A stretch of DNA of 64,000 nt from a virus. Of this stretch, positions 1 to 56,529 are shown one piece after another (positions within the stretch are counted from its first letter, which is position 1; each line of letters starts with the position of its first letter). The position numbers were made by a program, and so were the translations under genes. The notes below the pieces were generated by a model. The model had not been told where the DNA came from. It saw nothing but the letters and a program-made list of their open reading frames with translations, and searched no databases. Location: positions 1 through 64,000 of the IMG/VR virus record IMGVR_UViG_3300050821_024084; one strand, 5' to 3'.

Positions 1-648
1 TCATCCGTGCTCGCGCTGCCGGGCTTCCAGCGCTTCCGTGCGCCTGCGGTAGCCCGCGAGCATTCTTTTCATCTCCTCCATTTCTTCCTGAGAGTTCTCC
101 TGGTACGCGCGGGACTGCGTGGACTGATCTTTCAGCATGGAGATCTCCCGGCGGTGCCGTGCTACCTCATCGACCGTTTGCCCCATGATCTGCGTCAGGT
201 AATCGAAGCTCTCCCCGAGGGAGCGCAGCCTCCTGACTTCAGCAGGGGACAGGCCCTCCTCGCTTGTCGTGCGGATTGTCTCCGCTGCCTTGCTCAGCAT
301 TCGCTGGGAACTCTGACGCTCGGCAATGCCCTTCTGCATCTGCGCGACTCCCCGTGCGATCCGGTAGCCCTGCCCGCGTACGACTACGAGCGTGACCTGG
401 TGCTTGTCCTGAAGCTCGTGCGTGATGCGGGAGATTGTCTGGTAGTACGTCGGGCCGAGTGCCTGCGTTCCTATCGCCTCAGCGAAATCCGCATGAGAGA
501 TGACATCTCCCATGCGGACGCTGCTCAGCTCCAGCTGCACGCAGATCCACTCGAAGCCCGCGCGCCACAGCGCGCGCCCGTCGGGCCGCCGGGGGCGGAA
601 GAGCTCTATCTGCCCCCCGCCCCCGTCCTCGTGGTAGTCCTCAGACAT
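1..648 (-). CDS. Hypothetical protein (winged-helix-like N-half, coiled-coil C-half), translationally coupled downstream of the RAMP-like gene
   Basis: 215-aa ORF. Start overlaps the stop of 641-1372. GDVISHADF...VRGQGYRI resembles a helix-wing segment; the C-terminus is heptad-rich. Confidence 0.7.
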   Translation of the reverse strand: MSEDYHEDGGGGQIELFRPRRPDGRALWRAGFEWICVQLELSSVRMGDVISHADFAEAIGTQALGPTYYQTISRITHELQDKHQVTLVVVRGQGYRIARGVAQMQKGIAERQSSQRMLSKAAETIRTTSEEGLSPAEVRRLRSLGESFDYLTQIMGQTVDEVARHRREISMLKDQSTQSRAYQENSQEEMEEMKRMLAGYRRRTEALEARQREHG

Positions 649-1372
649 CGCCGAGGAATTCCGTCTCGACCTTGAAGCGGCCCGCGCCGTTGATGCGGTT
701 GTCGCCGAGGCCCTCGATGAGACCGCACATTTCCGTGATGTCCCGCAGGGTCTCGAAGTCTAGGAGCTGCGGGAAGAACAGCCACTCGCACTCCAGCGTC
801 CACTGCTTGAAGCGGGGGCGGCACCGGGGCACGCGACCGGACACGGTGACCATCGTGATGTCCTGGTAGGCACCGTGCATCGCGTACAGCGCGTGCGGGG
901 ATCGCTCCATGTCCTTGAACACCAGGCGGATGCCCTCACGTCCTGCCTGCGGGTCCCGGAAGTTCAGCGCGCGGTCGATGGAACGGCCTTGCCGGGTGGC
1001 CTTGGCTGCTTCCTTGAAGGCGCGCTTGATGTTCGTCTGCGGCATGACGACGACGAGATCGTCGTTGTCCTCGTTGGCCGGGCTGTCCTCCGTGCTGCTC
1101 GTGTACCCGGGCTCGAAGAACGCCCGGCTGCCGGTGTAAAGCCCGCCGAGGAATTCCAGGCGGGCCATCTCGTGCCGGTCCTCGTCGGTCTTCTTGCGCT
1201 TGGATGAGATCTTCGCGATGGCCTTGGTGTACGGGTCATCGGGGTTGGCGAGCCGGATGTTGTGCATCAGCAGCTCGGTCGTCCCGGTGAGCGTCGTCCG
1301 CGCGTACGCGAGCTTCAGCCGGCCGCCGCGCTTCTCCTGGGTTTCATTCTGCTCAAGAGCTGGGGTAGTCAC
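641..1372 (-). CDS. RAMP-superfamily (Cas7/Csm3-like) RNA-binding protein, solo, no other cas genes
   Basis: N-terminal strand TLTGTTELLMH, central MPQTNIKRAFKEAA (equivalent to IPGSSxKG), RVPRCRPRF..W, and C-terminal Gly-rich loop GLIEGLGDNRINGAGRF..V, the typical RAMP motif order. RBS GGAAGGA upstream. Confidence 0.75.
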   Translation of the reverse strand: MTTPALEQNETQEKRGGRLKLAYARTTLTGTTELLMHNIRLANPDDPYTKAIAKISSKRKKTDEDRHEMARLEFLGGLYTGSRAFFEPGYTSSTEDSPANEDNDDLVVVMPQTNIKRAFKEAAKATRQGRSIDRALNFRDPQAGREGIRLVFKDMERSPHALYAMHGAYQDITMVTVSGRVPRCRPRFKQWTLECEWLFFPQLLDFETLRDITEMCGLIEGLGDNRINGAGRFKVETEFLGDV

Positions 1373-1423
1373 GCGAGTCCTTCCTGCGATGATGAGGTGT
1401 CTTCTGCTTGCCGTAGCTCCCCT

Positions 1424-1429
1424 AGTATA
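1424..1429 (-). promoter_or_regulatory. Putative -10 element (TATACT) for the RAMP-like gene
   Basis: Plus strand AGTATA; the same GGTATACT context recurs upstream of other leftward genes (about 10168, 12769, 18483). Confidence 0.45.
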
Positions 1430-1459
1430 CCTAACTGGGATGGGCTAGGTATGCGCTAT

Positions 1460-1948
1460 GAGGGAGCCTGTCCTTGCCGTGAGAGAGCCCATCCCCTGCG
1501 ATCCTGGCCGATTCCAGCCTAGCCGCGAGGGAGCCTCGCCTATCCCGTTTCGTCTTGTCCTGCTCCTGAGAGAGCCGGTCCTTGCCCGTCCAGTCCTAGC
1601 CAAGCCCTGAGGTAGCCTTGCCCATCCCATCCGTTCCATTCCGTGTCACGCCGTGAGGGAGCCTAGCCCTTGCGATTCCATCCGTTCCCGTCCGCTCCTA
1701 GCCGCTGCGCGCCCTGAGGGAGCCCGGCCTCTGCGATTCTTTGCTATCCGATCCGCGCCGCTTCCGGTCCTATCCCTGAGGGAGCCTAGCCTATCCGGTC
1801 CGATTCTGGACGTTCCGTGCCTAGCCATTCCGTTCCTGTCCTTGAGGTAGCCCTGCCGGTCCTGTCCATTCCGTTCCGATGCGCGTCCTTCCCCGAGGGA
1901 GCCTTGCCCATCCCGTCCATTCCAGTCTGGCCAATCCCCGAGGGAGCC
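1460..1948 (-). repeat. Non-coding array of about 10 units, each made of 5-nt periods (minus strand GG[A/C]-NN) separated by a 9-nt delimiter; putative guide-RNA array
   Basis: Plus-strand delimiter GAG(G/A)(G/T)AGCC at 1460, 1481, 1527, 1568, 1609, 1655, 1716, 1778, 1844, 1895, 1940. Spacings are 21, 46, 41, 41, 46, 61, 62, 66, 51, 45 (8 of 10 equal 5n+1). The intervening DNA parses as NN-tcc/NN-gcc pentamers. Confidence 0.93.
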
Positions 1949-2057
1949 ACGCTACTTCTGCTCGTTCCGCCGCATGCCGGCGTCCCGGCGGGGTGAACGC
2001 TACCGTGCTGCGCTGGTCACCGCAACCGGGGCACGCTAGACTGTCCCTCACAGCACC

Positions 2058-2089
2058 GAGGCCCCCGGCAGCATGCTGCCGGGGGCCTC
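2058..2089. promoter_or_regulatory. Perfect 32-bp palindrome between the array and the primase gene
   Basis: GAGGCCCCCGGCAGCATGCTGCCGGGGGCCTC. Confidence 0.6.
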
Positions 2090-2123
2090 ATCTCGTACTT
2101 TCCACCGTACGCAAGGAGTCTAC

Positions 2124-4733
2124 ATGCCCGTCACGCCGTTCCGCAACTCCGGCCCGGAACCGGTCCCGATGGACACGCCCTTCGAGATCCCCGGCTGGTT
2201 CCGGTTCACCTGGTGCCGGTGGAACCACACGACGCGGAAGGCAGGCAGGGACCGCGACGGGCAGACCCGGATCAGGTACATCAAGAAGTTCGCGCTGGAA
2301 GGGGAAGTCGAGAGCTACGCGTACGGCACGTTCTGCGCGTTCCCCCGCGAGATGGACACCCAGCCGGGTCTCATCTGCGCGCCGCATGCGCGCTTCCTGG
2401 TCGCGGAGTGCGACGACGATGATGAGTTCGATCTCTCCCTGCTCGGAGACAATCCCGTCCCGACCGTGCGGTCCTCGCGAGGGTTCCACTACTACCACGC
2501 GGTCCCGCCGGAGCTGACGCACCTGATGCCAACCGACGGCCCGCTGCCGGGCGGGGATCTCCAGACGGCGGGCTTCGTGCCCGCGCCGGGCTGCACGCAC
2601 CCGTCCGGCGCGATCTACACGCTGGTGTCGGATCATCTCCCGGTAGCGGACGAGGCGATGCTGCTGCGGCTGCGCGCTGCCCGCACCCGGCAGAACGAGC
2701 GCCAGCGGGAGGTCTACCGCGAGCGCGGCGGGACGGGGGGCTACGACGGCTCAGGGATCAACGGGCAGGACGATTACCTGGCGAAGGAGATCTGCTGGAA
2801 GCTCGTCGCGCAGGGCCTGCCGGAGGCCGGGGTCCGGGAGATCTGGGAGCGGGAGGCTGCTCAGCTGCCGCTGGCCGACCCGTCCGATCCTTTCACCGGC
2901 GATGATTTCACCCGGCATTACGCAGGCGCGATGCGGAAGTACGCCCGGATGCAGGAGCGCGAGGCAGCTCCTGTGCGAGCGCTGACGAGCTGGAAGCCTA
3001 TGATAGCGGCTGCTGAGGAGAGCGAGGAAACCGTGACTGACGAGCCGTTCCCGCCGTCGCCGTTCCGTCCGGGCGCGGGCGCGTTCCGCATCAGCGACGG
3101 CCAGGTGGTCGAGGAGGTGCTGCTCCGCAAGGGCAAGGACATCCGGCTGGTCGCGTACTGCCCGATGTATGTCTCGCGGAGGATGTTCGACGACAAGGGC
3201 GAGATCCAGTACGAGATCTCCTGGAAGGCATACGACGGCCAGCTCATGCGCAGCTGCGCGACGGCGGCGGACATCCGCAATCACACCCGGCTCCTGACGG
3301 TGTTCCCGGAGGCTGTGGTGACCTCGACCGAGGCTCCGGCGCTGAGCAGGTACCTCACGAAGTACATCCAGGTGCATGCCGACGTCCTGCATGCGAATCA
3401 GGTGCGGATCGCCACCTCGCTGGGGTGGCAGAGCGGCACCGACTTGTTCGTGTCCGGCGACGGGCGTCCGTGCCAGGTGCAGGACACCGCGAATCTGGGG
3501 CGCTGGATGAGCGGTCATCAGGCATCCGGCTCACTGGAGACCTGGCGGGCGGCTCTGGAGCGCGCGCCGTGGCGGGTGCTCGTGCTGACCGCAGGCGCAT
3601 GTGCTGCTCCGCTGCTGAACATCCTTCAGGTCAATGGCTTCATCGTCAGCAACTCAGGGGAGACCACCCGGGGCAAGACGCGGGCGGCCCGGGTGGCGGC
3701 TAGCGTCTGGGGTAATCCCGAGGAGACTGTGCTCAGCTGGAGCGCCACGCGCGTCGCCCTGGAGCGCTACGCAGCGTCAGCACGAGGCGTGCCGCTCGTG
3801 GTGGATGACTCCAAGCTGGCGCGCACCGGGAACCAGATCGCGGAGATCATCTACCAGATCGCGTCGGGCACGTCGACCAGCAAGTCGGAGCGCTCGGGAG
3901 CGCGGCTCCAGGAGACGTACATCATCCGCACGGTGATGATCACGAACGGTGAGCAGCCGCTGCTGAGCGCGAGTGAGCACAGTGATGGCGGGGCGGCGGC
4001 TCGCGTGATCGAGATCTGGGGGCCTCCGTTCGAGTCTGCGGACCAGGCGGACATGCTGGACAGCGTGGTGACCGAGCATCACGGGCTGGCGGGCGAGCAT
4101 TTCGTGACCTGGCTGCTCGGCCTGGATGCGGAAGACATCCGCGCACGGTACCGGACCTTGCGCGAGAAGACCCAGGCTTCCGCGCAGACGGACGTCGCGC
4201 GCCGGCGGGGCAGTGCGATCGCCGTGCTGCGGCTGGCGGCGGAGCTGGCACATGAAGCTGGCCTCCTGCCGGAGATCGCCGAGGAACACTGGACCGAGAT
4301 CATTGCAGAGCGACCGGGTGAGGAGGGCTCTGATGATCTGCCTCGGGAGGCGCTGGAGAAACTCTGGCGTGAGGTGATGATGAACCGGAACATCTTCTGG
4401 GAGCCCCGTGACGGAGCAGGGCTCGCCTCCCAGGCGGTCCGGGGGCTCATCCCCGCCGGAGGGTTCGCTGGCCGGCTGGAGACTGAGAAGAACTGGGTGG
4501 CCGTCCGCCCGGAGTGGCTGAAGGACTTCCTGAAGAAGCACGGGCATGAGGCGGAGGGTGTCATCCGCAGCTGGGCGGAGCGCGGGTGGGTGGCTCAGAC
4601 GAAAGAGGGGAAGCGCACTATCCCGACACGGATCGCGGGCGGGTCGCCGGTAAAGCTCATCAAGGTGACCGAGCTTCCCGAAGGCGTCAGCAATATCGGC
4701 GAGGATCTTCTGCGAGACAGCGAAGATCTCTGA
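2124..4733 (+). CDS. Bifunctional primase/polymerase (AEP Prim-Pol) fused to a DUF927/Cch-like helicase
   Basis: TVRSSRGFHYY and GFVPAPGCTHPSGAIY Prim-Pol motifs; SLGW, Walker A SGETTRGKT, Walker B LVVDDS, ITNGE, ARVIEI, EHHGLAG helicase motifs; RBS AAGGAG before ATG 2124. Confidence 0.85.
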   Translation: MPVTPFRNSGPEPVPMDTPFEIPGWFRFTWCRWNHTTRKAGRDRDGQTRIRYIKKFALEGEVESYAYGTFCAFPREMDTQPGLICAPHARFLVAECDDDDEFDLSLLGDNPVPTVRSSRGFHYYHAVPPELTHLMPTDGPLPGGDLQTAGFVPAPGCTHPSGAIYTLVSDHLPVADEAMLLRLRAARTRQNERQREVYRERGGTGGYDGSGINGQDDYLAKEICWKLVAQGLPEAGVREIWEREAAQLPLADPSDPFTGDDFTRHYAGAMRKYARMQEREAAPVRALTSWKPMIAAAEESEETVTDEPFPPSPFRPGAGAFRISDGQVVEEVLLRKGKDIRLVAYCPMYVSRRMFDDKGEIQYEISWKAYDGQLMRSCATAADIRNHTRLLTVFPEAVVTSTEAPALSRYLTKYIQVHADVLHANQVRIATSLGWQSGTDLFVSGDGRPCQVQDTANLGRWMSGHQASGSLETWRAALERAPWRVLVLTAGACAAPLLNILQVNGFIVSNSGETTRGKTRAARVAASVWGNPEETVLSWSATRVALERYAASARGVPLVVDDSKLARTGNQIAEIIYQIASGTSTSKSERSGARLQETYIIRTVMITNGEQPLLSASEHSDGGAAARVIEIWGPPFESADQADMLDSVVTEHHGLAGEHFVTWLLGLDAEDIRARYRTLREKTQASAQTDVARRRGSAIAVLRLAAELAHEAGLLPEIAEEHWTEIIAERPGEEGSDDLPREALEKLWREVMMNRNIFWEPRDGAGLASQAVRGLIPAGGFAGRLETEKNWVAVRPEWLKDFLKKHGHEAEGVIRSWAERGWVAQTKEGKRTIPTRIAGGSPVKLIKVTELPEGVSNIGEDLLRDSEDL

Positions 4734-4742
4734 GGAGGGAAA

Positions 4743-4937
4743 ATGTACGACTGGCAGTTCACCTTGCCTGATGGTAACAAGGGGCTCATCGATGCCGAGG
4801 AAATGGGGGACACCACCGTCTGGCATGCCATCATCACATCGGATCCGGGTGACTGGGAGGGAACGCACGGATGGGGTGGCACAGCGGCAGAGCCCCTGGT
4901 GTTCGCGCTTAACAAGCGCGAAGAGAGCATCACCTAG
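4743..4937 (+). CDS. Small hypothetical protein
   Basis: 64-aa ORF with strong RBS GGAGGG. Confidence 0.55.
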   Translation: MYDWQFTLPDGNKGLIDAEEMGDTTVWHAIITSDPGDWEGTHGWGGTAAEPLVFALNKREESIT

Positions 4938-5004
4938 CTAACTCATAGTGAGCGCTCCGCTTCATTAAGTACGAGAGCAGGAGCGGAGCGCTCGAAAAAC
5001 ATCT

Positions 5005-5425
5005 CTGACCTGCATGTACCCCCTTGTACCCCCTTGTACCCCCGCTGTACCCCCCTAAAAATGTCCCTGACCTGCATGTACCCCCTGTACCCCCTTTTCG
5101 GGGATTTTAAGACGCAGGTACGCAGCCGCGTCTTGTTTGTATTCTGTACCCCCTCGTACCCCCTCGTGTACCCCCTCAGCAGGTCCCTGACCTGCATGTA
5201 CCCCCTGTACCCCCTGTACCCCCTAAAAATATCACCCTCGCGTGTACGCGTGCGTGCGTGCGTGCGTGAGGTTGTTCTACGAACGGGGTACAGGGGGTAC
5301 AGGGGGTACATGCAGGTCAGAGGCTTAAGAAGGGGGTACAGAGAGGGGTACAAGGGGGTACAGACACAGAGAGTAAGTAAGTAAGTAACAGAGAGTATAT
5401 ATATATATATATAAGAAAAAAGAAG
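5005..5425. repeat. Putative replication origin: GTACCCC iterons (direct then inverted) plus (TA)n AT-rich tract
   Basis: Many TGTACCCC(C) copies at 5015-5224; CTGACCTGCATGTACCCC x3; inverted GGGGTACA copies at 5285-5361; TATATATATATATATA at about 5396-5413; located immediately after the primase-helicase. Confidence 0.75.
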
Positions 5426-5490
5426 TACATCCTAAGAACTACCCCCCTTGCAGTAAGCTTGAGGGAGGCGGGAGGGCCAGGAGGGAAACC

Positions 5491-5679
5491 ATGAAGAACG
5501 AGCTGATCACGTGCCGCTGCGACCGGTACGGCGACCCGTGCCGGAACCCGGCGACGCAGGAGGACCTGCTCTGCGATGACTGCCGGGGCCGGAGCTGCTG
5601 GTGGATGGCGATTGAGCGGCAGGAGGCGACCCATTTCCTCCCCGCCTGGAACCTCCTCCCGGTCAGTACGCCCGGCTAG
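5491..5679 (+). CDS. Small Cys-rich hypothetical protein
   Basis: 62 aa, CxC..C..CxxC, RBS GGAGGG. Confidence 0.55.
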   Translation: MKNELITCRCDRYGDPCRNPATQEDLLCDDCRGRSCWWMAIERQEATHFLPAWNLLPVSTPG

Positions 5680-5796
5680 GAGCGATTCCCGGTTTCCGGC
5701 TTCAGAATCGCTCCGCAAAATTTTGTTGAAATTTCAAACTCCCATAAGGCTGTTTACGCGCTCGGATCGCTTGCTCTCACCGGGTAAACTGAGTTC

Positions 5797-7041
5797 ATGA
5801 GCACGACAGAGCGCACCTCGCACGGCACCTCGATCCGGGAGACCTGGGGTCCGGCGGTGACGATCGAGGACATCGAGCTGATCCTGGTCCGCGCCGGGGC
5901 GGCGTCCGGGGTGCGGATGCGGGTGCTCGACGCGGTGCGCAAGCACGTCAGCTGGGAGCTCAACAAGCGGATCCGCCCCTGGGGCGATTCTGCGGAGACC
6001 GGGCTGTCCCGGGTGCAGCGCGAGGAGCGGGACGCGCGGCGGGCGCGGATTGCGGCCAGCCTGGAGGACGTCGCCCTGGAGGTGCCCGCAGACGCCCCTC
6101 CGGTTCGCTCTGACGCGTTTTCAGCCCCGGACCCTACCGGAACTACCCCCCCGCCCTCCGAGGCGCTCAGGGACGCTCCCAGGGCCGCTGAGCCCGAGCC
6201 CCGGATCCGTATCCCGCTCCCCGTGAACCCGGAGCCGCTGCCGGATGCTGAGCCGGAGACAGCCGAGCTGGAGGAGATCGACGCGGAGCCGGAGCCTGAC
6301 GACGGCGATGCGGATGACGATGCGGATGACGAGGCGGTCGTCGAGGCGATCCGGGAGCTGCTGGGGGTCACCCCGGACCTGCGCCTGGTGCCGGACCAGG
6401 CCCCCGCCCCGGAGATGCCCTCGGAGAGCTCCCCAGCGGCCCCGGGACCGTCGGAGACCCCCGGACCCATACCGGAGGTACCCCCCGCCCTCCCGACGCC
6501 TCCAGCGCCCGCAGATGAGGCTTCCCGGCCGTCCCCCGGGAACGCGGAGCCGGAGCCCGCCGCTGCGGAGCCCACGGAAGCCACCTGCCGGGCCTGCGGG
6601 GCGGTGAAGCCGCTGGCGGGGTTCCGGCTGGATGACGGCCGCTGGCCGCGCCGGACGTGCCGGGCCTGCGAGGTGATCCAGCGCAGGGAGCGCAGGGAGC
6701 GGGAGCGGCTGCGGAAGACGACGCGGGCGTGCAGCAAGTGCGGCGTGCCCAAGCCCCTGACGGACTTCCGTCTCGACAAGTCCGGCCCGGACGGGAGGGC
6801 ACGGCAGTGCGCGGCGTGCATCCGGGAGCGGGAGCGGGCCTGGCAGGAGCAGCGGCAGAAGGCACGCCTGCTGGAGACGGGGTTCGTGGCGTGCACGAAG
6901 TGCGGGGAGCTGAAAGACCCTCAGACGGACTTCTACCCGAGGCGGCTGAAGAAGGACGGGCGGGCGACGCAGTGCAAGGAATGCGAGAAGGCGTATGCTA
7001 GGAATCACCGGAAGCCGAAGACGGCAGCAAAAGATTCTTGA
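5797..7041 (+). CDS. Protein with acidic/Pro-rich linker and three C-terminal CxxC-x-K..F-x-CxxC zinc-binding repeats
   Basis: TCRACGAVKPLAGF..CRAC, ACSKCGVPKPLTDF..CAAC, ACTKCGELK..DF..CKEC; TAAACT 6 nt before ATG suggests a leaderless start. Confidence 0.7.
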   Translation: MSTTERTSHGTSIRETWGPAVTIEDIELILVRAGAASGVRMRVLDAVRKHVSWELNKRIRPWGDSAETGLSRVQREERDARRARIAASLEDVALEVPADAPPVRSDAFSAPDPTGTTPPPSEALRDAPRAAEPEPRIRIPLPVNPEPLPDAEPETAELEEIDAEPEPDDGDADDDADDEAVVEAIRELLGVTPDLRLVPDQAPAPEMPSESSPAAPGPSETPGPIPEVPPALPTPPAPADEASRPSPGNAEPEPAAAEPTEATCRACGAVKPLAGFRLDDGRWPRRTCRACEVIQRRERRERERLRKTTRACSKCGVPKPLTDFRLDKSGPDGRARQCAACIRERERAWQEQRQKARLLETGFVACTKCGELKDPQTDFYPRRLKKDGRATQCKECEKAYARNHRKPKTAAKDS

Positions 7042-33336: not shown

Positions 33337-34160
33337 ATACCCAAAGGTAGGTAAGGTAAGCAATATGCGTCACTGCCAATGCCATTACGGGGGGTTCATG
33401 TTCCGCGCTGTAAAAGCCGCGCCCGTGCAATTCCACGGGACCTATCTACGGTATCCCTTTCGGGTGTTACCTCACCGTTGGCACTGGTGACCGCCTGGTA
33501 AACCAGGCGGATTAACGCTATTGATTGGCGGAATCGGCCACGGGCCCATGCAGCTTGCGAAACTACCGCGTACCGCATTTCGTGCGCCCACTACGTACCT
33601 TGCATTCTGCCCGCTTATGGCGTGGCCCAACTGCTTGCGCAGCCTGGTTGGACCATAAACGAGGTTTGGCCGACCCCTATGGTGTTATGCATTTCCCCAA
33701 CACGCGGCCTAGGCGAAATGCCCTAGGCGGGGGGCGCGCCCCGTGGGGGCGGCGCGCCGTGCTTTGAATTTGTATTGCACTACACACACTGGTGTAAGGG
33801 CACCGAATTTGTCAACAGCCTGTTGCCATTCTGTTCCCCTTTCGTTATCGTTCTGTTACCTGCGCCCGTTGCGCGCCCCTGTAAGCCACCATAAGCCACG
33901 CGCCGGCGCGCCCTAGTACCTGCCACGGGGGTGTGCCCTACAGGCCCGCAGCGTGGCGCGCAGCGCCGTGCACGGGCACCTAGCGCACGGGCGCACCCGC
34001 CCCTGTGCGTGGCCAGGGTGCGCTGTGCTGGCCTGCCACGGGCAGGCCCATACCGGCGTACGGGTAGCGCCATGCAGGCTGGTACAGGCACCCAGCTGGC
34101 GCGCCTGGTAATAGTTGCTTAGGTTAAGCAACGTTCTGACCAGGCATTATGTGCATGTTA

Positions 34161-34351
34161 GTTAGGTGTGCTAACCATTGTGTGACCACTAGTTAGCACA
34201 ACTAATGGTATTCATTAGCATTGCTAACATGTGTGCGCATGCGCCGGCACGCATATTAGTTAGCAATACTAACGAGCTGGCGCACTGGTTAGCGCGCCTA
34301 ATGATATTTCATTTGCATTGCTAACGATATACGTTAGTTAGTGATGCTAAC
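34161..34351. repeat. Seven 15-bp dyads RTTAG-N5-CTAAY
   Basis: At 34161, 34192, 34214, 34259, 34288, 34311 (imperfect), 34337. Confidence 0.85.
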
Positions 34352-34582
34352 GATCCGTCCGCACGCGTGTTCGAACTATTGTGTACTGATCAGTACACAA
34401 TAGTGGCTTTTTTCGAATTTGTACCCCGGCAATCTACCCCCCGCACCAGCCCCCTCCCCACACCCCCTAAAGCTCGAAAACATTTTCGAATTTTCCACCT
34501 CACCAGCCCCCCCGCCCCATCCTCCAAAGTTCGAAAACATTTTCGAATCCGCCGCACCGGCCCGCCATGCTATGCTGGCCTT

Positions 34583-35077
34583 ATGCACATACGCCTGGCC
34601 GCTGTCACCATCCTCACCGACGCTTCCGCTCGCGTCCTGCTCGGCATCCGAGGACCCGGCACCGGTGCCGGACTCTGGGGTCTGCCGGGGGGTCACTGCG
34701 ACCCTGGCGAGTCTCCGCGCGCCTGCGCCGCGCGTGAGCTGACCGAGGAGACGTCTCTCCGCGCGCACCCGGACGCTCTGACGTTCGCCCTGGTGTCCGG
34801 CCGACCGGCGTTCACCGTCCCGGACACCACCTACATCGAATTCATTTTCGAATGCTCGCGCGTCGCCGGCACGCCCCGGGACACCCCCGAGATGCACAGC
34901 TGGACCTGGTTCTCCCCGGCTGCGCTCCCGCCTGCCGCTGCGATGTTCCCGCCTGCCCGGGGGGTCATCACCGCCTGGCTCCAGGGGGAGCGCTGCGCCT
35001 GGCGGACCGCCTCCGACCCCGCCCTCAATCCCGAACACCAGTTCTACACCGTCCCCGGGCATCAGTCCGGGACATGA
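34583..35077 (+). CDS. NUDIX hydrolase
   Basis: Nudix box GGHCDPGESPRACAARELTEETSL; TATGCT 6 nt before ATG (leaderless). Confidence 0.9.
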   Translation: MHIRLAAVTILTDASARVLLGIRGPGTGAGLWGLPGGHCDPGESPRACAARELTEETSLRAHPDALTFALVSGRPAFTVPDTTYIEFIFECSRVAGTPRDTPEMHSWTWFSPAALPPAAAMFPPARGVITAWLQGERCAWRTASDPALNPEHQFYTVPGHQSGT

Positions 35078-35147
35078 CACACCTGGTTCTGTGACCGGGG
35101 GGTCCAGGGGGGATGCTCCGGCTCTCGTCAGCTCCAGCGCAGACGAC

Positions 35148-35876
35148 TCACGGGTACCTGGTATCCGGCGCACCTGGCCCTGCGTCTGCCGATCGCCGGG
35201 CCAGACCGTAGATCCACTCTCCGGGGTATGCCGGATGCCCGTAGCCGACGCGACCGGCGAGCTCGGTTTTCCTCACATCCGTCCGCCACGGACGAACCGT
35301 CAGCGTGATGACCTCGCAGTCGGCCGCGTCCAGGATAGTCCAGAGCTCAGCTGGCTGATGATACCGGAAGTAGCGCGGGGCTCCGAGCCGGGCGGTCTCG
35401 TACTCGTCGCCGTCGCCGCGACGCGTGCAGAACGCGAAGACCCCGCCGGGCCGGAGGACCGACCGGATCCACCCGAGCGCGATGCGCAGCTCCCGGATGG
35501 TGAAGTGATGCAGGACCGCCGCCGCCAGAACTCCGTCGAATCGATGGTCGACGGGCGGGTCCGTCAGGACATTGATGCTCCAGACGTCCTGTCCCTGAGC
35601 GCGAAGATAGTCCGCGAATGCCGGGGTGACGTCGCTGCGCTGCACGTCCGCGCCGAGCTGTTCCAGCACGCGAGCATCGCGTCCGTGAGCGGAGCCGATC
35701 TCCAGCACGCGCGGACGTCCGGCATCGGGTCCGCCCGACGTGAGCTCCTGACAGAAGTCCGTCAGCCACAAATCATACCAGGGAGGATATGTGACTGAGA
35801 CACTCCGCGCGATGTACGCGGCGGCATGTGCCTGATAGGTCTGAAGAGTGACGACGGACGGATCGGGACTGTTCAT
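35148..35876 (-). CDS. Class I SAM-dependent methyltransferase
   Basis: VLEIGSAHGRDA, FDGVLAAAVLHH, VLRPGGVFAF. Confidence 0.85.
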   Translation of the reverse strand: MNSPDPSVVTLQTYQAHAAAYIARSVSVTYPPWYDLWLTDFCQELTSGGPDAGRPRVLEIGSAHGRDARVLEQLGADVQRSDVTPAFADYLRAQGQDVWSINVLTDPPVDHRFDGVLAAAVLHHFTIRELRIALGWIRSVLRPGGVFAFCTRRGDGDEYETARLGAPRYFRYHQPAELWTILDAADCEVITLTVRPWRTDVRKTELAGRVGYGHPAYPGEWIYGLARRSADAGPGAPDTRYP

Positions 35877-35893
35877 GAGAAGCCTTTCGTCTG

Positions 35894-35909
35894 TAGAACT
35901 GATGTTCGA
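35894..35909. promoter_or_regulatory. LexA/SOS-like box
   Basis: TAGAAC-TGAT-GTTCGA, about 18 bp upstream of the methyltransferase start. Confidence 0.55.
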
Positions 35910-35943
35910 TAACTGCCAGGCGAGCGACCCGGACTGACAGCAG

Positions 35944-36279
35944 GTGGTGCAGGCCCCCGGGACACTGGTCATCGACACCGCCGGCGACATCCTGGCGTTC
36001 AACACACCGTACGGCAACACGACGATGGCCATCGTGCAGTCCGAGTACTTCATGATCTATCAGGACAGCGGTGCGTCGCAGGGCGTGCCGATCTTCACGT
36101 TCAGCAACGGCGTGTATACCGATCCGTTCAGCAACACCATCGGCGGCGGTTTGTTCCTCGGTCAGGTCGGGACGCCGACCACGTCGCCGACTGCGGGCAT
36201 CCAGCTGTACGTGGATGCGTCCGGGAACCTGAAGGCGCTCACGCAGGACGGGAACACGCGGACCATTGCTGCGGTGTGA
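35944..36279 (+). CDS. Hypothetical protein resembling a virion/tail-fibre fragment
   Basis: G/T/S-rich beta-type sequence, PTAGIQLYVDASGNLKA..DG. Confidence 0.45.
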   Translation: MVQAPGTLVIDTAGDILAFNTPYGNTTMAIVQSEYFMIYQDSGASQGVPIFTFSNGVYTDPFSNTIGGGLFLGQVGTPTTSPTAGIQLYVDASGNLKALTQDGNTRTIAAV

Positions 36280-36355
36280 GCGTCAGCGCTTTGTTTCGTG
36301 GACGGATAAGACGTCGTCCTGAGATCTCCTCAGACACCATGCGCACTGACACGTT

Positions 36356-36416
36356 CAGTCTAGCCTAGCCTGTCCTGTCCCATCCTTGTCTTTCCAAGCC
36401 ACTCCCTGAGTTACGC
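36356..36416 (-). repeat. Orphan pentamer-periodic unit of the same type as the 1460-1948 array
   Basis: Plus strand: ca gtc ta gcc ta gcc tg tcc tg tcc ca tcc tt gtc tt tcc aa gcc ac tcc ct GAGTTACGC (delimiter-like). Confidence 0.8.
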
Positions 36417-36666
36417 TGTGTAACTATCGCCTACCTGGCTAGGCGATGCTACCAGTGCGTCCGCTCGTGACGTCCGCGCAGCTGCTCGTCCGTCGGGACG
36501 ACGGGGAGCTTGTCGCTGAGATGCCACAGGACGCACATGCTGGCGAGATCCACTGCGGCGTACAGGAACTGGAACGGGAGCTGTCGCAGGACGAACTCCA
36601 TCAGATCGCCCAGACCGATGAGTCCCTGGATGCCTGCCAGGACACGAAGCAGGAGGATGCGTGCAT

Positions 36667-36921
36667 TCATGATAGCGGAGTGACCTTCCTGGGGGTGGAG
36701 CGCGGTCGGATGGGGATCTGCATCGCTACGATGTCGCGATGCACCTGCGTGTAGCTGACGCCGGTCGCAGCGGCGATGGCACGCATGCTGTAACCGAGCG
36801 CGTACATGCGCTGGACGGTGAGCTGTCGACTCACCTCCCGGAGCCGGACGGTCCAGTACGCGAACGCGGTCGCGTTGCCGTCCGGATAGCCGCGCATCGG
36901 TCCGGCGAGATAGATCTCCAT
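36667..36921 (-). CDS. DUF4406-like N-terminus fused to an HTH-like segment
   Basis: IYLAGPMRGYPDGNATAF then GYSMRAIAAATGVSYTQVHRDI. Confidence 0.55.
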   Translation of the reverse strand: MEIYLAGPMRGYPDGNATAFAYWTVRLREVSRQLTVQRMYALGYSMRAIAAATGVSYTQVHRDIVAMQIPIRPRSTPRKVTPLS

Positions 36922-36937
36922 GCAGCTCCTTCATCGA

Positions 36938-36953
36938 TCGAACTGATGTTCGT
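36938..36953. promoter_or_regulatory. LexA/SOS-like box
   Basis: TCGAAC-TGAT-GTTCGT upstream of 36921. Confidence 0.6.
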
Positions 36954-36954
36954 A

Positions 36955-37644
36955 TCAGTCGAGCATCCAGGTGAGCGTCGCATCCGCGTGCGCGACGGTT
37001 GTGTCGAGTACCGGCAGAGACGCTACTTCAGCCGACAGCAGCAGCCCGAGCTCGGTGCAGCCGAGGATCACGCCGTCGCATCCGGCGGCGGCCAGACGTC
37101 CGGTGACGTCGCGCAGCTTGTCCCGGCTCTCCTCGGAGATAACGCCCCGGCAGAGCTCATCATAGATGATCCGGTCCACCATCTGACGATCCGGCTCGTC
37201 AGGAATCGTGATCGTGAGATCACGTTCTGCGAGCGCATCTCGGTAGAACTGGTGTTCCATCGTGTAGCGGGTTCCCAGCAGTCCCGGACGAGTCATATCG
37301 CGTGTGCGAGCGGCAGCAGTCACAGCATCGGCGATATGCAGCACCGGTATCGCGACTGCCGTCGCGATCTGAGAGTAGACGCGATGCATCGTGTTCGTGC
37401 AGATGATGAGTCCCTCTGCGCCGGCATGCTCCAGATTGCGTGCGCACGTGGCCAGATAATCCCCGGCGAGTTCCCACTGCCCGGACGTCTGGAGATATTC
37501 CACGTTCGCGAAGTCGACCGACAGCACGATGCAGCTCGCGGAATGCAGCTCGCCGAGCCGGGTCCGGACACCCTCGTTGAGCAGACGATAATAGACGGCG
37601 GTGCTTTCCCAGCTCATGCCGCCCAGCAGACCGATCGTTTTCAT
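36955..37644 (-). CDS. Aspartate/glutamate racemase family protein (YgeA/RacX-like)
   Basis: MKTIGLLGGMSWEST..YY, ICTNTMH, LLGTRYTME, VILGCTE. Confidence 0.93.
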   Translation of the reverse strand: MKTIGLLGGMSWESTAVYYRLLNEGVRTRLGELHSASCIVLSVDFANVEYLQTSGQWELAGDYLATCARNLEHAGAEGLIICTNTMHRVYSQIATAVAIPVLHIADAVTAAARTRDMTRPGLLGTRYTMEHQFYRDALAERDLTITIPDEPDRQMVDRIIYDELCRGVISEESRDKLRDVTGRLAAAGCDGVILGCTELGLLLSAEVASLPVLDTTVAHADATLTWMLD

Positions 37645-37662
37645 GAATCCGTCCTTCCGTTG

Positions 37663-37678
37663 TCGAACTGATGTTCGG
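37663..37678. promoter_or_regulatory. LexA/SOS-like box
   Basis: TCGAAC-TGAT-GTTCGG upstream of the racemase. Confidence 0.6.
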
Positions 37679-37845
37679 GAAGCAGGGTCGCTGCGCGACC
37701 CTGCACCCCGCCTGGTAACGCTCGCCGCCGGACCGGCAGCGACATCCCGCGTCCCGGTCTGCGCGAGCAGCCGAGCTTGTGCGCGTGACGCATCTGGCAT
37801 TCCGGGCAGCGTCCGCGCACCCGGAACCAGACCGCCCGGACGCGC

Positions 37846-38289
37846 TCACTCCAGCTGAGCCCGGTCATCCCGGCCTCCTGTCGAACTGATGTTCGTATCC
37901 GGGCCGGGATCGGCCAGGTCGCGATCGCTCCACAGCGTCACCCGGGTCTCGCGCTGCTCCAGCAGCGACGGCAGCCGGTACCAGGCCACCCGGATGGTGT
38001 ACCGGCCCGTTCCCTCCGTCAGGACGGTCCAGCCCCGCACCGTCCGGGGGACGCTCACCTGCGTGAGCGGCATATCCGGGCGCGCGCCCGGTCCCGGGGT
38101 CCGGTCGGAGCGTCCGATGTGAATCCATTCTCCCGAGTACCCGTAGATGTCCGGGTACTTCTCCCGGGTCTGAATCTCCAGGATCCACACATCGTCGCGC
38201 TCGAAAATCAGATCGACGCCCTCGACGTGAATCTCGCCCTGCTCGACCTGGATTTCCCGGTCGGGGGCGCGGGGGATGCCGTCAGTCAT
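37846..38289 (-). CDS. Hypothetical protein
   Basis: ATG 38289 (MTDGIP) after GAGGA. Confidence 0.6.
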   Translation of the reverse strand: MTDGIPRAPDREIQVEQGEIHVEGVDLIFERDDVWILEIQTREKYPDIYGYSGEWIHIGRSDRTPGPGARPDMPLTQVSVPRTVRGWTVLTEGTGRYTIRVAWYRLPSLLEQRETRVTLWSDRDLADPGPDTNISSTGGRDDRAQLE

Positions 38290-55244: not shown

Positions 55245-56529
55245 AGTAGCAGATCGCGTTATCAAGGAAAAGCTCGAAGGCTATACCCTAGGTGAGCAGG
55301 ACTATGACGTCCTGGTGCGCGGGAAGGCGCTCGTGCGGATGCCGGACGGACGTCCGCTGCTGTGCTATCTGCCGGGCGTCCTGAAAGAGACCCAGGAGCG
55401 CGAGGGCGTCTACGATATTCTGCATCCGCTGTACACGCACATGACCAACAACCGGGGCGCGGCCAGCGGGACGCGGAGGATCGTCCGGGGGTCCGGCGAG
55501 AAGACCGGCAAGCGCAGCGATGCGATGTCGGTGGCCTCGCCGTTCATCGGGGCGGCAGATCCCGGCGGGATCTACCGGTACTGCCGTCTGACAGAATGGA
55601 CTGGCAGTCATCTCCCGCAGTGGGAGGCACTGCATCCGTATCTCCGGGAGATCGCGCATCACTTCGAGCAGCAGATCCCGGATCGGCATGCCGTCCAGAT
55701 GGAGTACGTGCAGCGCACCGACCACGCCTGGGTCGTGCCGGGAACGCCGTTCACCACTATCACCGTCAACAACTCGTTCGCGACGGGCGTGCACAAGGAC
55801 GCCGGGGATCTGGAGACGGGGTTCTCCGCGCTGTCCTGCCTGCGTCAGGGCGACTACGAGGGCGGCGTCCTGGTGTTTCCCGCGTATCGCATCGGGGTAG
55901 ACATGCAGGACGGGGATCTGCTGCTGATGGACGCGCATCAGTGGCACGGCAACACCCGCATGATGTGCGGCTGCGGGGAGCCTATCCAGCGGCGGTTCTG
56001 CGAGACGTGCGGGGCTGAGCGGATCAGCGTGGTGTGCTATTACCGGACTAAGATAGCCGACTGCGGCACCCCGGAAGAGGAACTGGAACGCGCCGTGACG
56101 GACACGGAGCGCCGGTCAGGACTAGGAGACGAGCTTGATGAGCGGGACACGAACTCAGACCCTGCAAGTGGACTCCCGGGCGCTCCAGCGGTACGTGCAG
56201 GGGATGACCTACCAGCAGATAGCGGACGCGGAGCAGTGCTCCGAGCAGACAGCTCACATCCGGGTCCGCCGGGCGATCCGGAACCAGTACCGGCTGGAAG
56301 CCGACGAGCTCCGCGTCGTCGCGGACGAGCAGCTCAGCTTCCTGACCCGGCAGCTGACCGCGCTGATCCACAAGAAGTCCTACAAGATAGCGCCCAACGG
56401 GAAGATCGCCGTTCACCCGGAGACCGGGGAGCCGCTGGAGGACTACAGCGAGCAGCGGATGACCGCGCTGGCGCTGCTCAAGGTGGGCGAGTCCCGGCGC
56501 AAGCTGCTCGGACTCGACCAGCCAGTTAA
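55219..56529 (+). CDS. TET/JBP-family 2OG-Fe(II) dioxygenase
   Basis: NRG.ASG, YCRLT, PFTTITVN..F.T.VHKDAGD, GDLLLMDAH.WHGNT, RISVVCYYR. The C-terminal ~130 codons overlap terS and may be non-functional. Confidence 0.85.
   Translation: MIRLRLATRVADRVIKEKLEGYTLGEQDYDVLVRGKALVRMPDGRPLLCYLPGVLKETQEREGVYDILHPLYTHMTNNRGAASGTRRIVRGSGEKTGKRSDAMSVASPFIGAADPGGIYRYCRLTEWTGSHLPQWEALHPYLREIAHHFEQQIPDRHAVQMEYVQRTDHAWVVPGTPFTTITVNNSFATGVHKDAGDLETGFSALSCLRQGDYEGGVLVFPAYRIGVDMQDGDLLLMDAHQWHGNTRMMCGCGEPIQRRFCETCGAERISVVCYYRTKIADCGTPEEELERAVTDTERRSGLGDELDERDTNSDPASGLPGAPAVRAGDDLPADSGRGAVLRADSSHPGPPGDPEPVPAGSRRAPRRRGRAAQLPDPAADRADPQEVLQDSAQREDRRSPGDRGAAGGLQRAADDRAGAAQGGRVPAQAARTRPAS

What the first reader, a model, noticed from the sequence alone, without database searches (positions are those of the whole stretch)
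36346..36445. Orphan guide-like unit 35 kb from the array
An intergenic stretch has about 10 pentamer periods in the same orientation and alphabet as the main array (ca gtc ta gcc ta gcc tg tcc tg tcc ca tcc tt gtc tt tcc aa gcc ac tcc ct), ending in ctGAGTTACGC, which resembles the ctGAGGTAGCC delimiter. A small hairpin (CGCCTA...TAGGCG, about 36428-36445) lies just upstream on the minus strand. This suggests units can be dispersed and act in trans, and argues against the main array being local slippage.
Basis: seen in the sequence. Interest (0 to 1): 0.8.

Follow-up and report, generated by a model that had tools for sequence, protein, structure and literature searches.

The report
Stand-alone VIPR guide-RNA unit in a prophage
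The short five-base repeat tract is real and is a lone guide-RNA unit of the phage's VIPR system, a CRISPR-like DNA silencer first described in 2026. It lies 35 kb from the main guide array and is a new example of a known kind, not a new system.

Summary
On the minus strand, 36356-36405 holds ten in-phase GGMNN pentamers (8 GG, 2 GA). They follow an 11-nt motif (36406-36416) that matches the main array's delimiter at 8 of 11 positions and in the same register.

No Markov shuffle of the 101-kb genome reached 8 of 10 in-phase units (0 of 200). A profile of the main-array units picks the orphan as its top hit outside the array (E = 0.04).

The main array (1460-1948) sits beside a 243-aa RAMP protein. 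That protein's family matches the solved SUSP1 Vipr protein (E = 7e-44). The system is therefore VIPR (bioRxiv 10.64898/2026.04.26.720920).

Solo or orphan vrRNAs are already published for satellites and for phages without VIPR (10.64898/2026.10.15.759431). This scan has also noted similar orphans in at least 18 other genomes.

What this case adds:
- The orphan lies in a genome that has its own vipr gene.
- It shares the genome's unusual GGA/GGC dialect.
- 3 of 11 near-complete VIPR-carrying viral genomes hold guide units more than 5 kb from vipr.

Expression, loading by Vipr and the target are not shown. No target was found, and a decayed relic remains possible (about 0.3).

The parts
36356..36405 (-). 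Orphan vrRNA-like repeat tract: ten in-phase pentamers GGMNN (8 GG, 2 GA). The variable dinucleotides are GT TT AA AA TG CA CA TA TA TG.
36406..36416 (-). Delimiter-like motif (RNA sense GCGTAACTCA plus G). It matches the array delimiter GGCTACCTCAG at 8 of 11 positions and is followed by pentamers in the array's register.
36410..36424 (.). Small 5-bp hairpin (GTTAC, 5-nt loop, GTAAC) that overlaps the delimiter-like motif.
   Evidence: read from the sequence.
36426..36447 (.). Hairpin with an 8-bp stem and 6-nt loop directly after the stop codon of the minus-strand 73-aa ORF. No T-run follows it.
36446..36454 (-). TGGTAGCAT, a TGnTAnnnT extended -10-like box about 40 nt upstream of the tract. 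It overlaps the stop codon of the upstream ORF. This is weak evidence only.
   Evidence: 55 such boxes in the genome, 20 of them in intergenic DNA, which makes up 26% of the genome.
36280..36355 (-). Structured 3' flank of the tract. It includes the reverse complement of the + strand terminator-like hairpin at 36278-36291. No closing delimiter is present, only GGCTA.
   Evidence: fold z-score -1.76, not significant.
36449..36673 (-). 73-aa ORF with a hydrophobic N-terminus, immediately upstream of the orphan on the same strand.
36667..36921 (-). 84-aa ORF with an HTH_58 domain behind a 30-residue DUF4406 N-terminal remnant.
35944..36279 (+). 111-aa ORF that converges on the orphan. No relatives were found.
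1460..1948 (-). Main vrRNA array: 11 delimiters GGCT(C/A)(C/T)CTC and 10 units of 2-11 GGMNN pentamers.
641..1372 (-). vipr gene: a 243-aa RAMP protein (P0001).
1..648 (-). vap-like accessory gene (215 aa, P0002), directly downstream of vipr.

Best explanation
The tract is a stand-alone guide-RNA (vrRNA) unit of the prophage's own VIPR system.

Proposed mechanism (published for the SUSP1 system, inferred here):
- The minus strand is transcribed, either as the 3' end of the HTH / 73-aa operon or from the TGnTAnnnT box at 36446-36454.
- The delimiter-like motif marks the unit's 5' boundary, as delimiters do inside the main array.
- Vipr protomers made from the gene 35 kb away bind one per GGM pentamer and form a helical filament.
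- The filament presents the ten NN dinucleotides to pair with double-stranded DNA, skipping every third target base, and silences transcription there.

The unit has the layout of an array-terminal 'delimiter plus last unit', so it probably arose by relocation of an array end.

Shown: the sequence grammar, the identity of Vipr, and dispersal of units in relatives. Inferred: transcription, processing, loading and targeting. The target is unknown.
For: Identity of the system:
- The A1 profile of P0001 relatives matches PDB 36pp 'SUSP1 Vipr protein' at E = 7.2e-44 over nearly its full length.
- The AF2 model (pLDDT 91) matches Csm3/Cas7 RAMPs: Foldseek probability 1.0, VIA Z 10.3.
- H37, D224 and R226 are invariant or nearly so. 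In the alignment the matching His and Asp-x-Arg columns line up with SUSP1 H..., GDWR, which the structure paper gives as H17, D177 and R179.
- 229 viral stretches encode relatives. Most of the 80 fetched loci carry GGNNN pentamer arrays next to the gene.
- The published VIPR description fits: Vipr plus vap plus vrRNAs of 9-16 pentamers.

The orphan belongs to this system:
- 8 of 10 in-phase units, against 0 of 200 shuffles.
- Same strand as vipr and the array.
- Same register of delimiter, one base, then pentamers.
- Top nhmmer hit outside the array, E = 0.04.
- Third-base dialect A5/C3/T0, against A35/C29/T0 in the main array; relatives use mostly C.
- Conformity of 80%, against about 70% over the main-array units (counted).

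Precedent:
- In the sister clade (L002, L003, L035) the last unit of the downstream array is also 'delimiter, one base, at least 10 pentamers, no closing delimiter'.
- 3 of 11 near-complete VIPR-carrying viral genomes have units more than 5 kb from their single vipr gene.
- In G003, eight distal singles carry the same promoter-like box and tail hairpin as the units beside vipr.
- Solo vrRNAs that use a Vipr made elsewhere are shown experimentally for satellites.
Against: - No RNA data could be obtained.
- There is no consensus promoter or terminator, and the TGnTAnnnT box is weak evidence.
- The 3' side lacks the delimiter or tail that follows units in the array and the sister clade; only GGCTA remains.
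- No target was found in any search, exact or mismatch-tolerant.
- The NN string is AT-rich (25-30% GC) and would spell odd peptides, so a coding target in a GC-rich rival is unlikely.
- The neighbouring gene is a chimera (DUF4406 remnant plus HTH), which suggests a rearranged, possibly decaying region.
- No sister genome could be fetched to test conservation.
Confidence: 0.55

Rival explanations
1. Relic. The tract is a fragment of a vrRNA array (last delimiter plus last unit) that was moved by recombination into an accessory region. It is no longer expressed or loaded.
For: - There is no closing delimiter or tail.
- There is no clear promoter.
- No target was found.
- The flanking ORF is chimeric.
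- The 31-40 kb region has weak coding signal.
- The delimiter-like motif is degraded to 8 of 11 matches.
Against: - The unit conforms better (80%) than the main array on average (about 70%).
- It keeps the exact register and dialect.
- Its length of 10 units falls in the published functional range of 9-16.
- Relatives maintain many complete distal units.
Confidence: 0.3
2. Solo vrRNA used against a rival's VIPR, either as a decoy or redirecting guide (as in F5 satellites) or as a guide against another phage's vipr or vrRNAs, rather than as an ordinary guide of the resident system.
For: Published solo vrRNAs act this way. The orphan sits apart from the operon and could be expressed on a different schedule.
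Against: - Its GGA/GGC dialect matches this genome's own array, not the GGC/GGT of relatives.
- It has no match above the shuffled-guide null in 80 related VIPR loci or 11 genomes.
- No repeated host or phage element matches it.
Confidence: 0.07
3. A DNA-level site: a binding array for Vipr, Vap or another protein, for example a regulatory or partition site, not an RNA gene.
For: The main array lies in a promoter-bearing divergent intergenic region upstream of vipr, and repeated short motifs can be operators.
Against: The published mechanism is RNA-based and has structures behind it. The strict strand polarity of the units in all 11 genomes fits transcription. The orphan lies between gene ends, not at a promoter.
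Confidence: 0.05
4. A chance periodic run or local slippage.
For: Adjacent duplicates (GGACA twice, GGCTA twice) could come from slippage.
Against: 0 of 200 shuffles reach 8 of 10. The delimiter match in register, the shared dialect and the shared strand point the same way. The ten NN values are otherwise varied.
Confidence: 0.03

Closest known systems
VIPR systems (Vipr RAMP + vap + vrRNA); type example Escherichia phage SUSP1; bioRxiv 10.64898/2026.04.26.720920 and 10.64898/2026.04.26.720927
   Same: - A small RAMP protein homologous to SUSP1 Vipr.
- A two-gene vipr-vap operon.
- Flanking arrays of pentamers with a fixed GG triplet and a variable NN.
- The system is carried by a phage.
   Different: - The third base is A or C (GGM), not a pyrimidine.
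- The G-loop reads D-N-R, not D-W-R.
- Units are separated by a 10-nt delimiter, not a ~40-nt structured tail; this may be the 'staggered array' type.
- The unit studied here lies 35 kb from the operon.
Solo (orphan) vrRNAs of F5 satellites and of VIPR-null SUSP1-family phages; bioRxiv 10.64898/2026.10.15.759431
   Same: A single vrRNA unit encoded away from any vipr/vap operon and presumed to use a Vipr made elsewhere.
   Different: - Those elements lack vipr. This genome has it.
- Those solos keep the full conserved tail and sit at the deleted vipr locus or in a conserved satellite region. This one has only a 5' delimiter-like motif and lies in an unrelated accessory region.
- The published targets (REP elements, vipr, vrRNAs, satellites) were identified. 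No target was found here.
Dispersed vrRNA genes in related VIPR-carrying viral genomes G003 (160 kb) and G002 (154 kb), found here
   Same: Single guide units tens of kb from the only vipr gene, in short intergenic gaps.
   Different: Each G003 unit has its own TGATAGAGT-type box and its own tail hairpin, and uses GGC/GGT. The G000 orphan has neither a clear promoter nor a tail.
Isolated CRISPR mini-arrays / solitary repeat units in viruses (from my own knowledge)
   Same: Guide-encoding units carried by viruses apart from effector genes and aimed at competitors.
   Different: These have contiguous spacers flanked by repeats, a different effector family and no pentamer code.

Membership tests
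VIPR system | The Vipr protein is a small single-RRM RAMP homologous to characterised Vipr. | tested here: met
   The A1 profile matches PDB 36pp_D 'SUSP1 Vipr protein' at E = 7.2e-44, residues 4-189 of 202. The fold matches Csm3/Cas7.
VIPR system | Residues that read the GG bases are present (SUSP1 H17, D177, R138; W178 stacks on G2). | tested here: inconclusive
   H37, D224 and R226 are invariant or nearly so, as are the Arg residues R180/R183/R185. The corresponding His and Asp-x-Arg columns of the A1 profile align with SUSP1's H and GDWR. The Trp is replaced by Asn in this clade. Which Arg corresponds to R138 was not mapped by structure.
VIPR system | A vap accessory gene lies beside vipr. 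| tested here: met
   P0002 lies directly downstream. Homologues lie directly downstream of vipr, or within a few hundred bases, in 19 of 80 loci by single-sequence tblastn.
vrRNA (the orphan itself) | A tandem run of at least 4 (typically 9-16) pentamers with a fixed GGY and a variable NN. | tested here: met
   Ten in-phase units, 8 with GG. The third base is A or C, not Y, which is the same variant as the genome's main array. The paper allows 'a related consensus'.
vrRNA (the orphan itself) | A conserved 3' tail follows the repeat tract. | tested here: not met
   The delimiter-like motif is 5' of the tract. The 3' side keeps only GGCTA, then unrelated structured sequence. Array-terminal units in L002/L003/L035 also lack a closing delimiter, so the feature may not be required in this clade.
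vrRNA (the orphan itself) | It is expressed as a small RNA that co-purifies with Vipr. | not testable with these tools
vrRNA (the orphan itself) | The NN string matches a natural DNA target under the 1-nt skip rule (at least 80% NN identity). | tested here: inconclusive
   - Own genome: maximum 13 of 20.
- 2.37 Mb of related phage DNA: maximum 15 of 20, equal to the shuffled-guide null.
- Exact 18-base pattern: only AT-rich chance hits.
- No database-wide search that tolerates mismatches was possible.
Solo vrRNA sensu Lopez et al. 2026 | It is encoded on an element that lacks vipr and vap. | tested here: not met
   The same record carries one vipr gene at 641-1372 (tblastn). The orphan is 'solo' only in the sense of being distant from the operon.

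The most novel reading that the evidence does not exclude
Some large VIPR-carrying actinophage-type genomes keep a distributed guide repertoire. Single vrRNA units are scattered through the genome, either as mini-genes or, as here, embedded at the 3' end of an accessory operon and released at a delimiter. Different guides would then be expressed on different schedules. Under this reading the GGA/GGC 'dialect' of this phage reflects a Vipr with an altered third-base pocket, which insulates its guides from rival Vipr proteins and from rivals' decoy vrRNAs.
Probability: 0.2. Interest if true: 0.55.

Novelty: new member of a known kind. Interest (0 to 1): 0.35.

Why it matters
VIPR is a newly described, very small RNA-guided DNA-binding system and a proposed ancestor of CRISPR effectors. 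This case matters for three reasons.
- Guide units of a phage that carries VIPR need not sit beside vipr, so locus-centred surveys (20-kb windows in the discovery paper) undercount guides.
- It documents a clade with short delimiters and a GGA/GGC scaffold. That conflicts with the purine-excluding pocket described for SUSP1 and would be worth a structure.
- It gives concrete test cases (this orphan, plus G002 and G003) for whether guides act in trans within one genome.

It does not reveal a new kind of system.

Tried and rejected
**Centromere or operator idea.** My first idea was a centromere- or operator-like repeat for a partition protein upstream of a ParA-like gene. I rejected it because the 243-aa protein has no Pfam hit and is a RAMP/Vipr.

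**Close relatives of the locus.** None were found.
- blastn of 35000-38000 and of 1-6000 against phages, and of 1-6000 against plasmids: no match.
- The 111-aa neighbour in viral, genome and metagenome contigs: no relatives.
- The racemase in viral and metagenome contigs: none.

**Target search.**
- 1-nt-skip scan of the orphan guide on its own genome: 13 of 20.
- The same scan on 2.37 Mb of related phage DNA: 15 of 20, equal to the null.
- Exact 18-base gapped pattern in viral contigs: 9 hits, all in contigs of 31-37% GC.
- The same pattern in genome contigs: 35 hits, nearly all in typically low-GC lineages by organism name (GC not computed) and none in Actinomycetota. I read both sets as chance.
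- The 22-base pattern of main-array unit U1852: 0 hits.
- 29 guides of G002 and G003: no self- or cross-targets above the null.

**'Solo guide beside its recoded target'.** This lead came from earlier notes of the scan. The best local match is 11 of 20 at 35902-35930, with 10 of 12 over the first six units. That is expected by chance given the positions tested.

**AT-rich operator region.** A cluster of 12-of-20 matches at 34179-34274 reflects an AT-rich operator-like repeat region, not a target.

**RNA families, promoters and fold.**
- No Rfam family matches 36100-36700.
- There is no sigma-70 consensus promoter, and no terminator on the minus strand.
- The RNA fold of the region is not significant (z -1.76).

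Full report
**What is there.**
The window is the first 64 kb of a 101,021-bp IMG/VR provirus record of 65% GC.

At the finding, the + strand reads ten NN[GT]CC-type pentamers (36356-36405) and then CTGAGTTACGC (36406-16). On the minus strand this is an 11-nt motif followed by ten in-phase pentamers. Eight of them are GG plus A or C plus two variable bases; two begin with GA.

An 8-bp hairpin (36426-36447) and a 5-bp hairpin (36410-36424) lie just upstream in minus-strand sense.

The tract sits between convergent genes. A 111-aa + strand ORF ends at 36279, with a terminator-like hairpin at 36278-36291. A 73-aa minus-strand ORF ends at 36449. That ORF follows an 84-aa HTH ORF, an Asp/Glu racemase and a 197-aa ORF on the same strand.

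**Is it more than chance?**
- Across both strands of the whole record, at least 7 of 10 in-phase GG[AC] units occur only in the main array (1460-1948) and here, all on the minus strand.
- In 200 Markov shuffles of the array-masked genome the best value was 4-6 in 196, 7 in four, and never 8.
- An nhmmer profile built from nine main-array units finds the orphan as its best hit in the masked genome (E = 0.04). The alignment keeps the register of delimiter end, one base, then pentamers.

**What the main array is.**
- The array has 11 copies of GGCT(C/A)(C/T)CTC and 10 units of 2-11 pentamers. The start-to-start spacing is mostly 5n+1.
- It lies upstream of, and in the same sense as, a 243-aa gene (641-1372) and a 215-aa gene (1-648). 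Neither gene has a Pfam family.
- The 243-aa protein has about 80 relatives of roughly 200 aa, with a C-terminal glycine-rich loop.
- Its AF2 model (pLDDT 91) matches Csm3/Cmr4/Cas7 RAMPs.
- 229 viral stretches encode relatives. In most of the 80 fetched loci, pentamer-periodic GG arrays lie directly beside the gene.

**Literature.**
- A literature search led to the VIPR papers.
- A Vipr RAMP and a vap gene work with vrRNAs made of 9-16 GGY/NN pentamers plus a 3' tail.
- One Vipr protomer binds each pentamer.
- The NN bases pair with double-stranded DNA, skipping every third base, and this represses transcription.
- The A1 profile matches the solved 'SUSP1 Vipr protein' (PDB 36pp) at E = 7.2e-44, so membership rests on sequence homology to the characterised protein.
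- The vap-like gene follows vipr, directly or within a few hundred bases, in at least 19 of 80 loci.

**Does the orphan belong to this system?**
- The grammar is the same. In the array each unit is a 10-nt delimiter, one base, then pentamers. The orphan is an 8-of-11 delimiter match, one G, then pentamers.
- This genome uses an unusual scaffold. The third base is A (35) or C (29) and never T in the main array. Relatives use mostly C with some T. The orphan has A5/C3/T0.
- The orphan's conformity (8 of 10) is above the main array's average of about 70%.
- I therefore put about 0.9 on the tract being vrRNA-type sequence of this phage's own VIPR system.

**Which side does the delimiter belong to?**
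The sister clade (L002, L003, L035; Vipr 44-46% identical) uses the same GGCTACCTCA delimiter. Its arrays start with a unit just downstream of a TGnTAnnnT box, and delimiters follow units.

The last unit of its downstream arrays is 'delimiter, one base, at least 10 pentamers, no closing delimiter'. The orphan has exactly this layout. It looks like a relocated array end. The missing closing delimiter is not by itself a defect.

**Are dispersed units a general feature?**
I assembled 11 near-complete VIPR-carrying viral genomes of 75-160 kb, each with one vipr gene. Units more than 5 kb from vipr occur in three of them:
- this genome: 1 unit;
- G002: one single unit at 55 kb and a four-unit array at 95 kb;
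- G003: eight single units at 18-52 kb and a five-unit array at 6 kb.

Fifty-five shuffled genomes gave one cluster in all.

In G003, seven of the eight distal singles carry a clear TGATAGAGT-type (or TGATAAAGT/TGATACAGT) box, and all eight end in a short A-rich motif, mostly GGGAGAAG, followed by a hairpin. The units beside vipr show the same features. Each distal single sits in a short intergenic gap, on either strand relative to its neighbours.

Trans use of one Vipr by distant guides is therefore the simplest reading for these genomes.

The published solo vrRNAs are on satellites and on VIPR-null phages. I found no statement about distal units in genomes that carry VIPR.

**What could not be shown.**
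- Expression: no consensus promoter or terminator was found. A TGGTAGCAT box at 36446-36454 is weak evidence. Read-through from the upstream operon is equally possible.
- Target: no match above the null in the phage's own genome or in 2.37 Mb of related phage DNA. Exact gapped patterns hit only AT-rich viral contigs and bacterial lineages that are nearly all typically low-GC by name.
- The lead from earlier scan notes, that solo guides spell a rival allele of the neighbouring gene, found no support here. Sister sequences could not be fetched.
- The upstream HTH ORF is a chimera with a DUF4406 remnant, so the region has been rearranged.

**Verdict.**
The thing is a distal, stand-alone vrRNA unit of a VIPR system.

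I put 0.55 on it being functional in trans and about 0.3 on it being a relic of an array end. It is a new member of a kind published in 2026. This scan has already noted similar orphans in at least 18 other genomes. Interest is therefore modest.

Noticed in passing
window 5000-5420: An origin-like region just after the primase/helicase gene (2073-4733). It holds about a dozen TGTACCCCC iterons in direct orientation, then inverted copies (GGGGGTACA), with (GCGT)5, (AGTA)4 and (TA)9 runs between and after them.
   Followed up: no
window 34120-34405: An AT-rich regulatory region upstream of the NUDIX gene. It has about 8 copies of a palindromic operator-like motif (GTTAGC, 5 nt, CTAAC) and a perfect 30-bp palindrome at 34375-34404. 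It gave a cluster of 12-of-20 chance matches to the orphan guide.
   Followed up: partly
window 36667-36921 (minus): An 84-aa ORF that looks like a chimera. Residues 1-30 match the start of DUF4406 (E = 0.002, below Pfam's gathering score). Residues 35-77 are an HTH_58 domain, with a weak HTH-only match to the CRISPR repeat-binding protein Cbp1. It overlaps the start of a 73-aa hydrophobic ORF.
   Followed up: partly
G003:C1 (L082-L089) 56033-56097, 71331-71380, 72579-72638, 90290-90359, 142644-142703, 143784-143848, 144350-144414, 149190-149244: Eight single vrRNA genes are scattered over a 160-kb phage genome that has one vipr gene (107997-108569). Seven of them have a clear TGATAGAGT-type box, and all end in a short A-rich motif (mostly GGGAGAAG) plus a tail hairpin, like the units beside vipr. 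There is also a five-unit array on the opposite strand 6 kb from vipr.
   Followed up: partly
G002:C1 (L090-L097) 111488-111557 and 151047-151382: A single vrRNA-like unit lies 55 kb from vipr, apparently antisense inside a 688-aa ORF by my crude gene call. A second four-unit array lies 95 kb from vipr in a 154-kb phage genome.
   Followed up: no
window 1460-1948: The main array uses GGA about as often as GGC and never GGT, unlike relatives and unlike the published purine-excluding pocket. Four of the ten units contain a recurring non-canonical pentamer GAATC, three to five pentamers before the delimiter.
   Followed up: partly
window 207-224 (minus): A delimiter-like sequence (GCTCCCTCGGGGAG) lies inside the vap-like coding region. 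It is the second-best nhmmer hit of the unit profile (E = 0.48) and is probably chance.
   Followed up: no
window 641-1372, residues about 88-105 of P0001: An acidic insertion with low model confidence is present in P0001 and shared in part by a few of its relatives (P0003, P0004, P0009; P0079 has a glycine-rich insertion at the same place). It is absent from the other ~200-aa family members aligned in A1 and, by the near-gapless profile alignment, apparently from SUSP1 Vipr.
   Followed up: no
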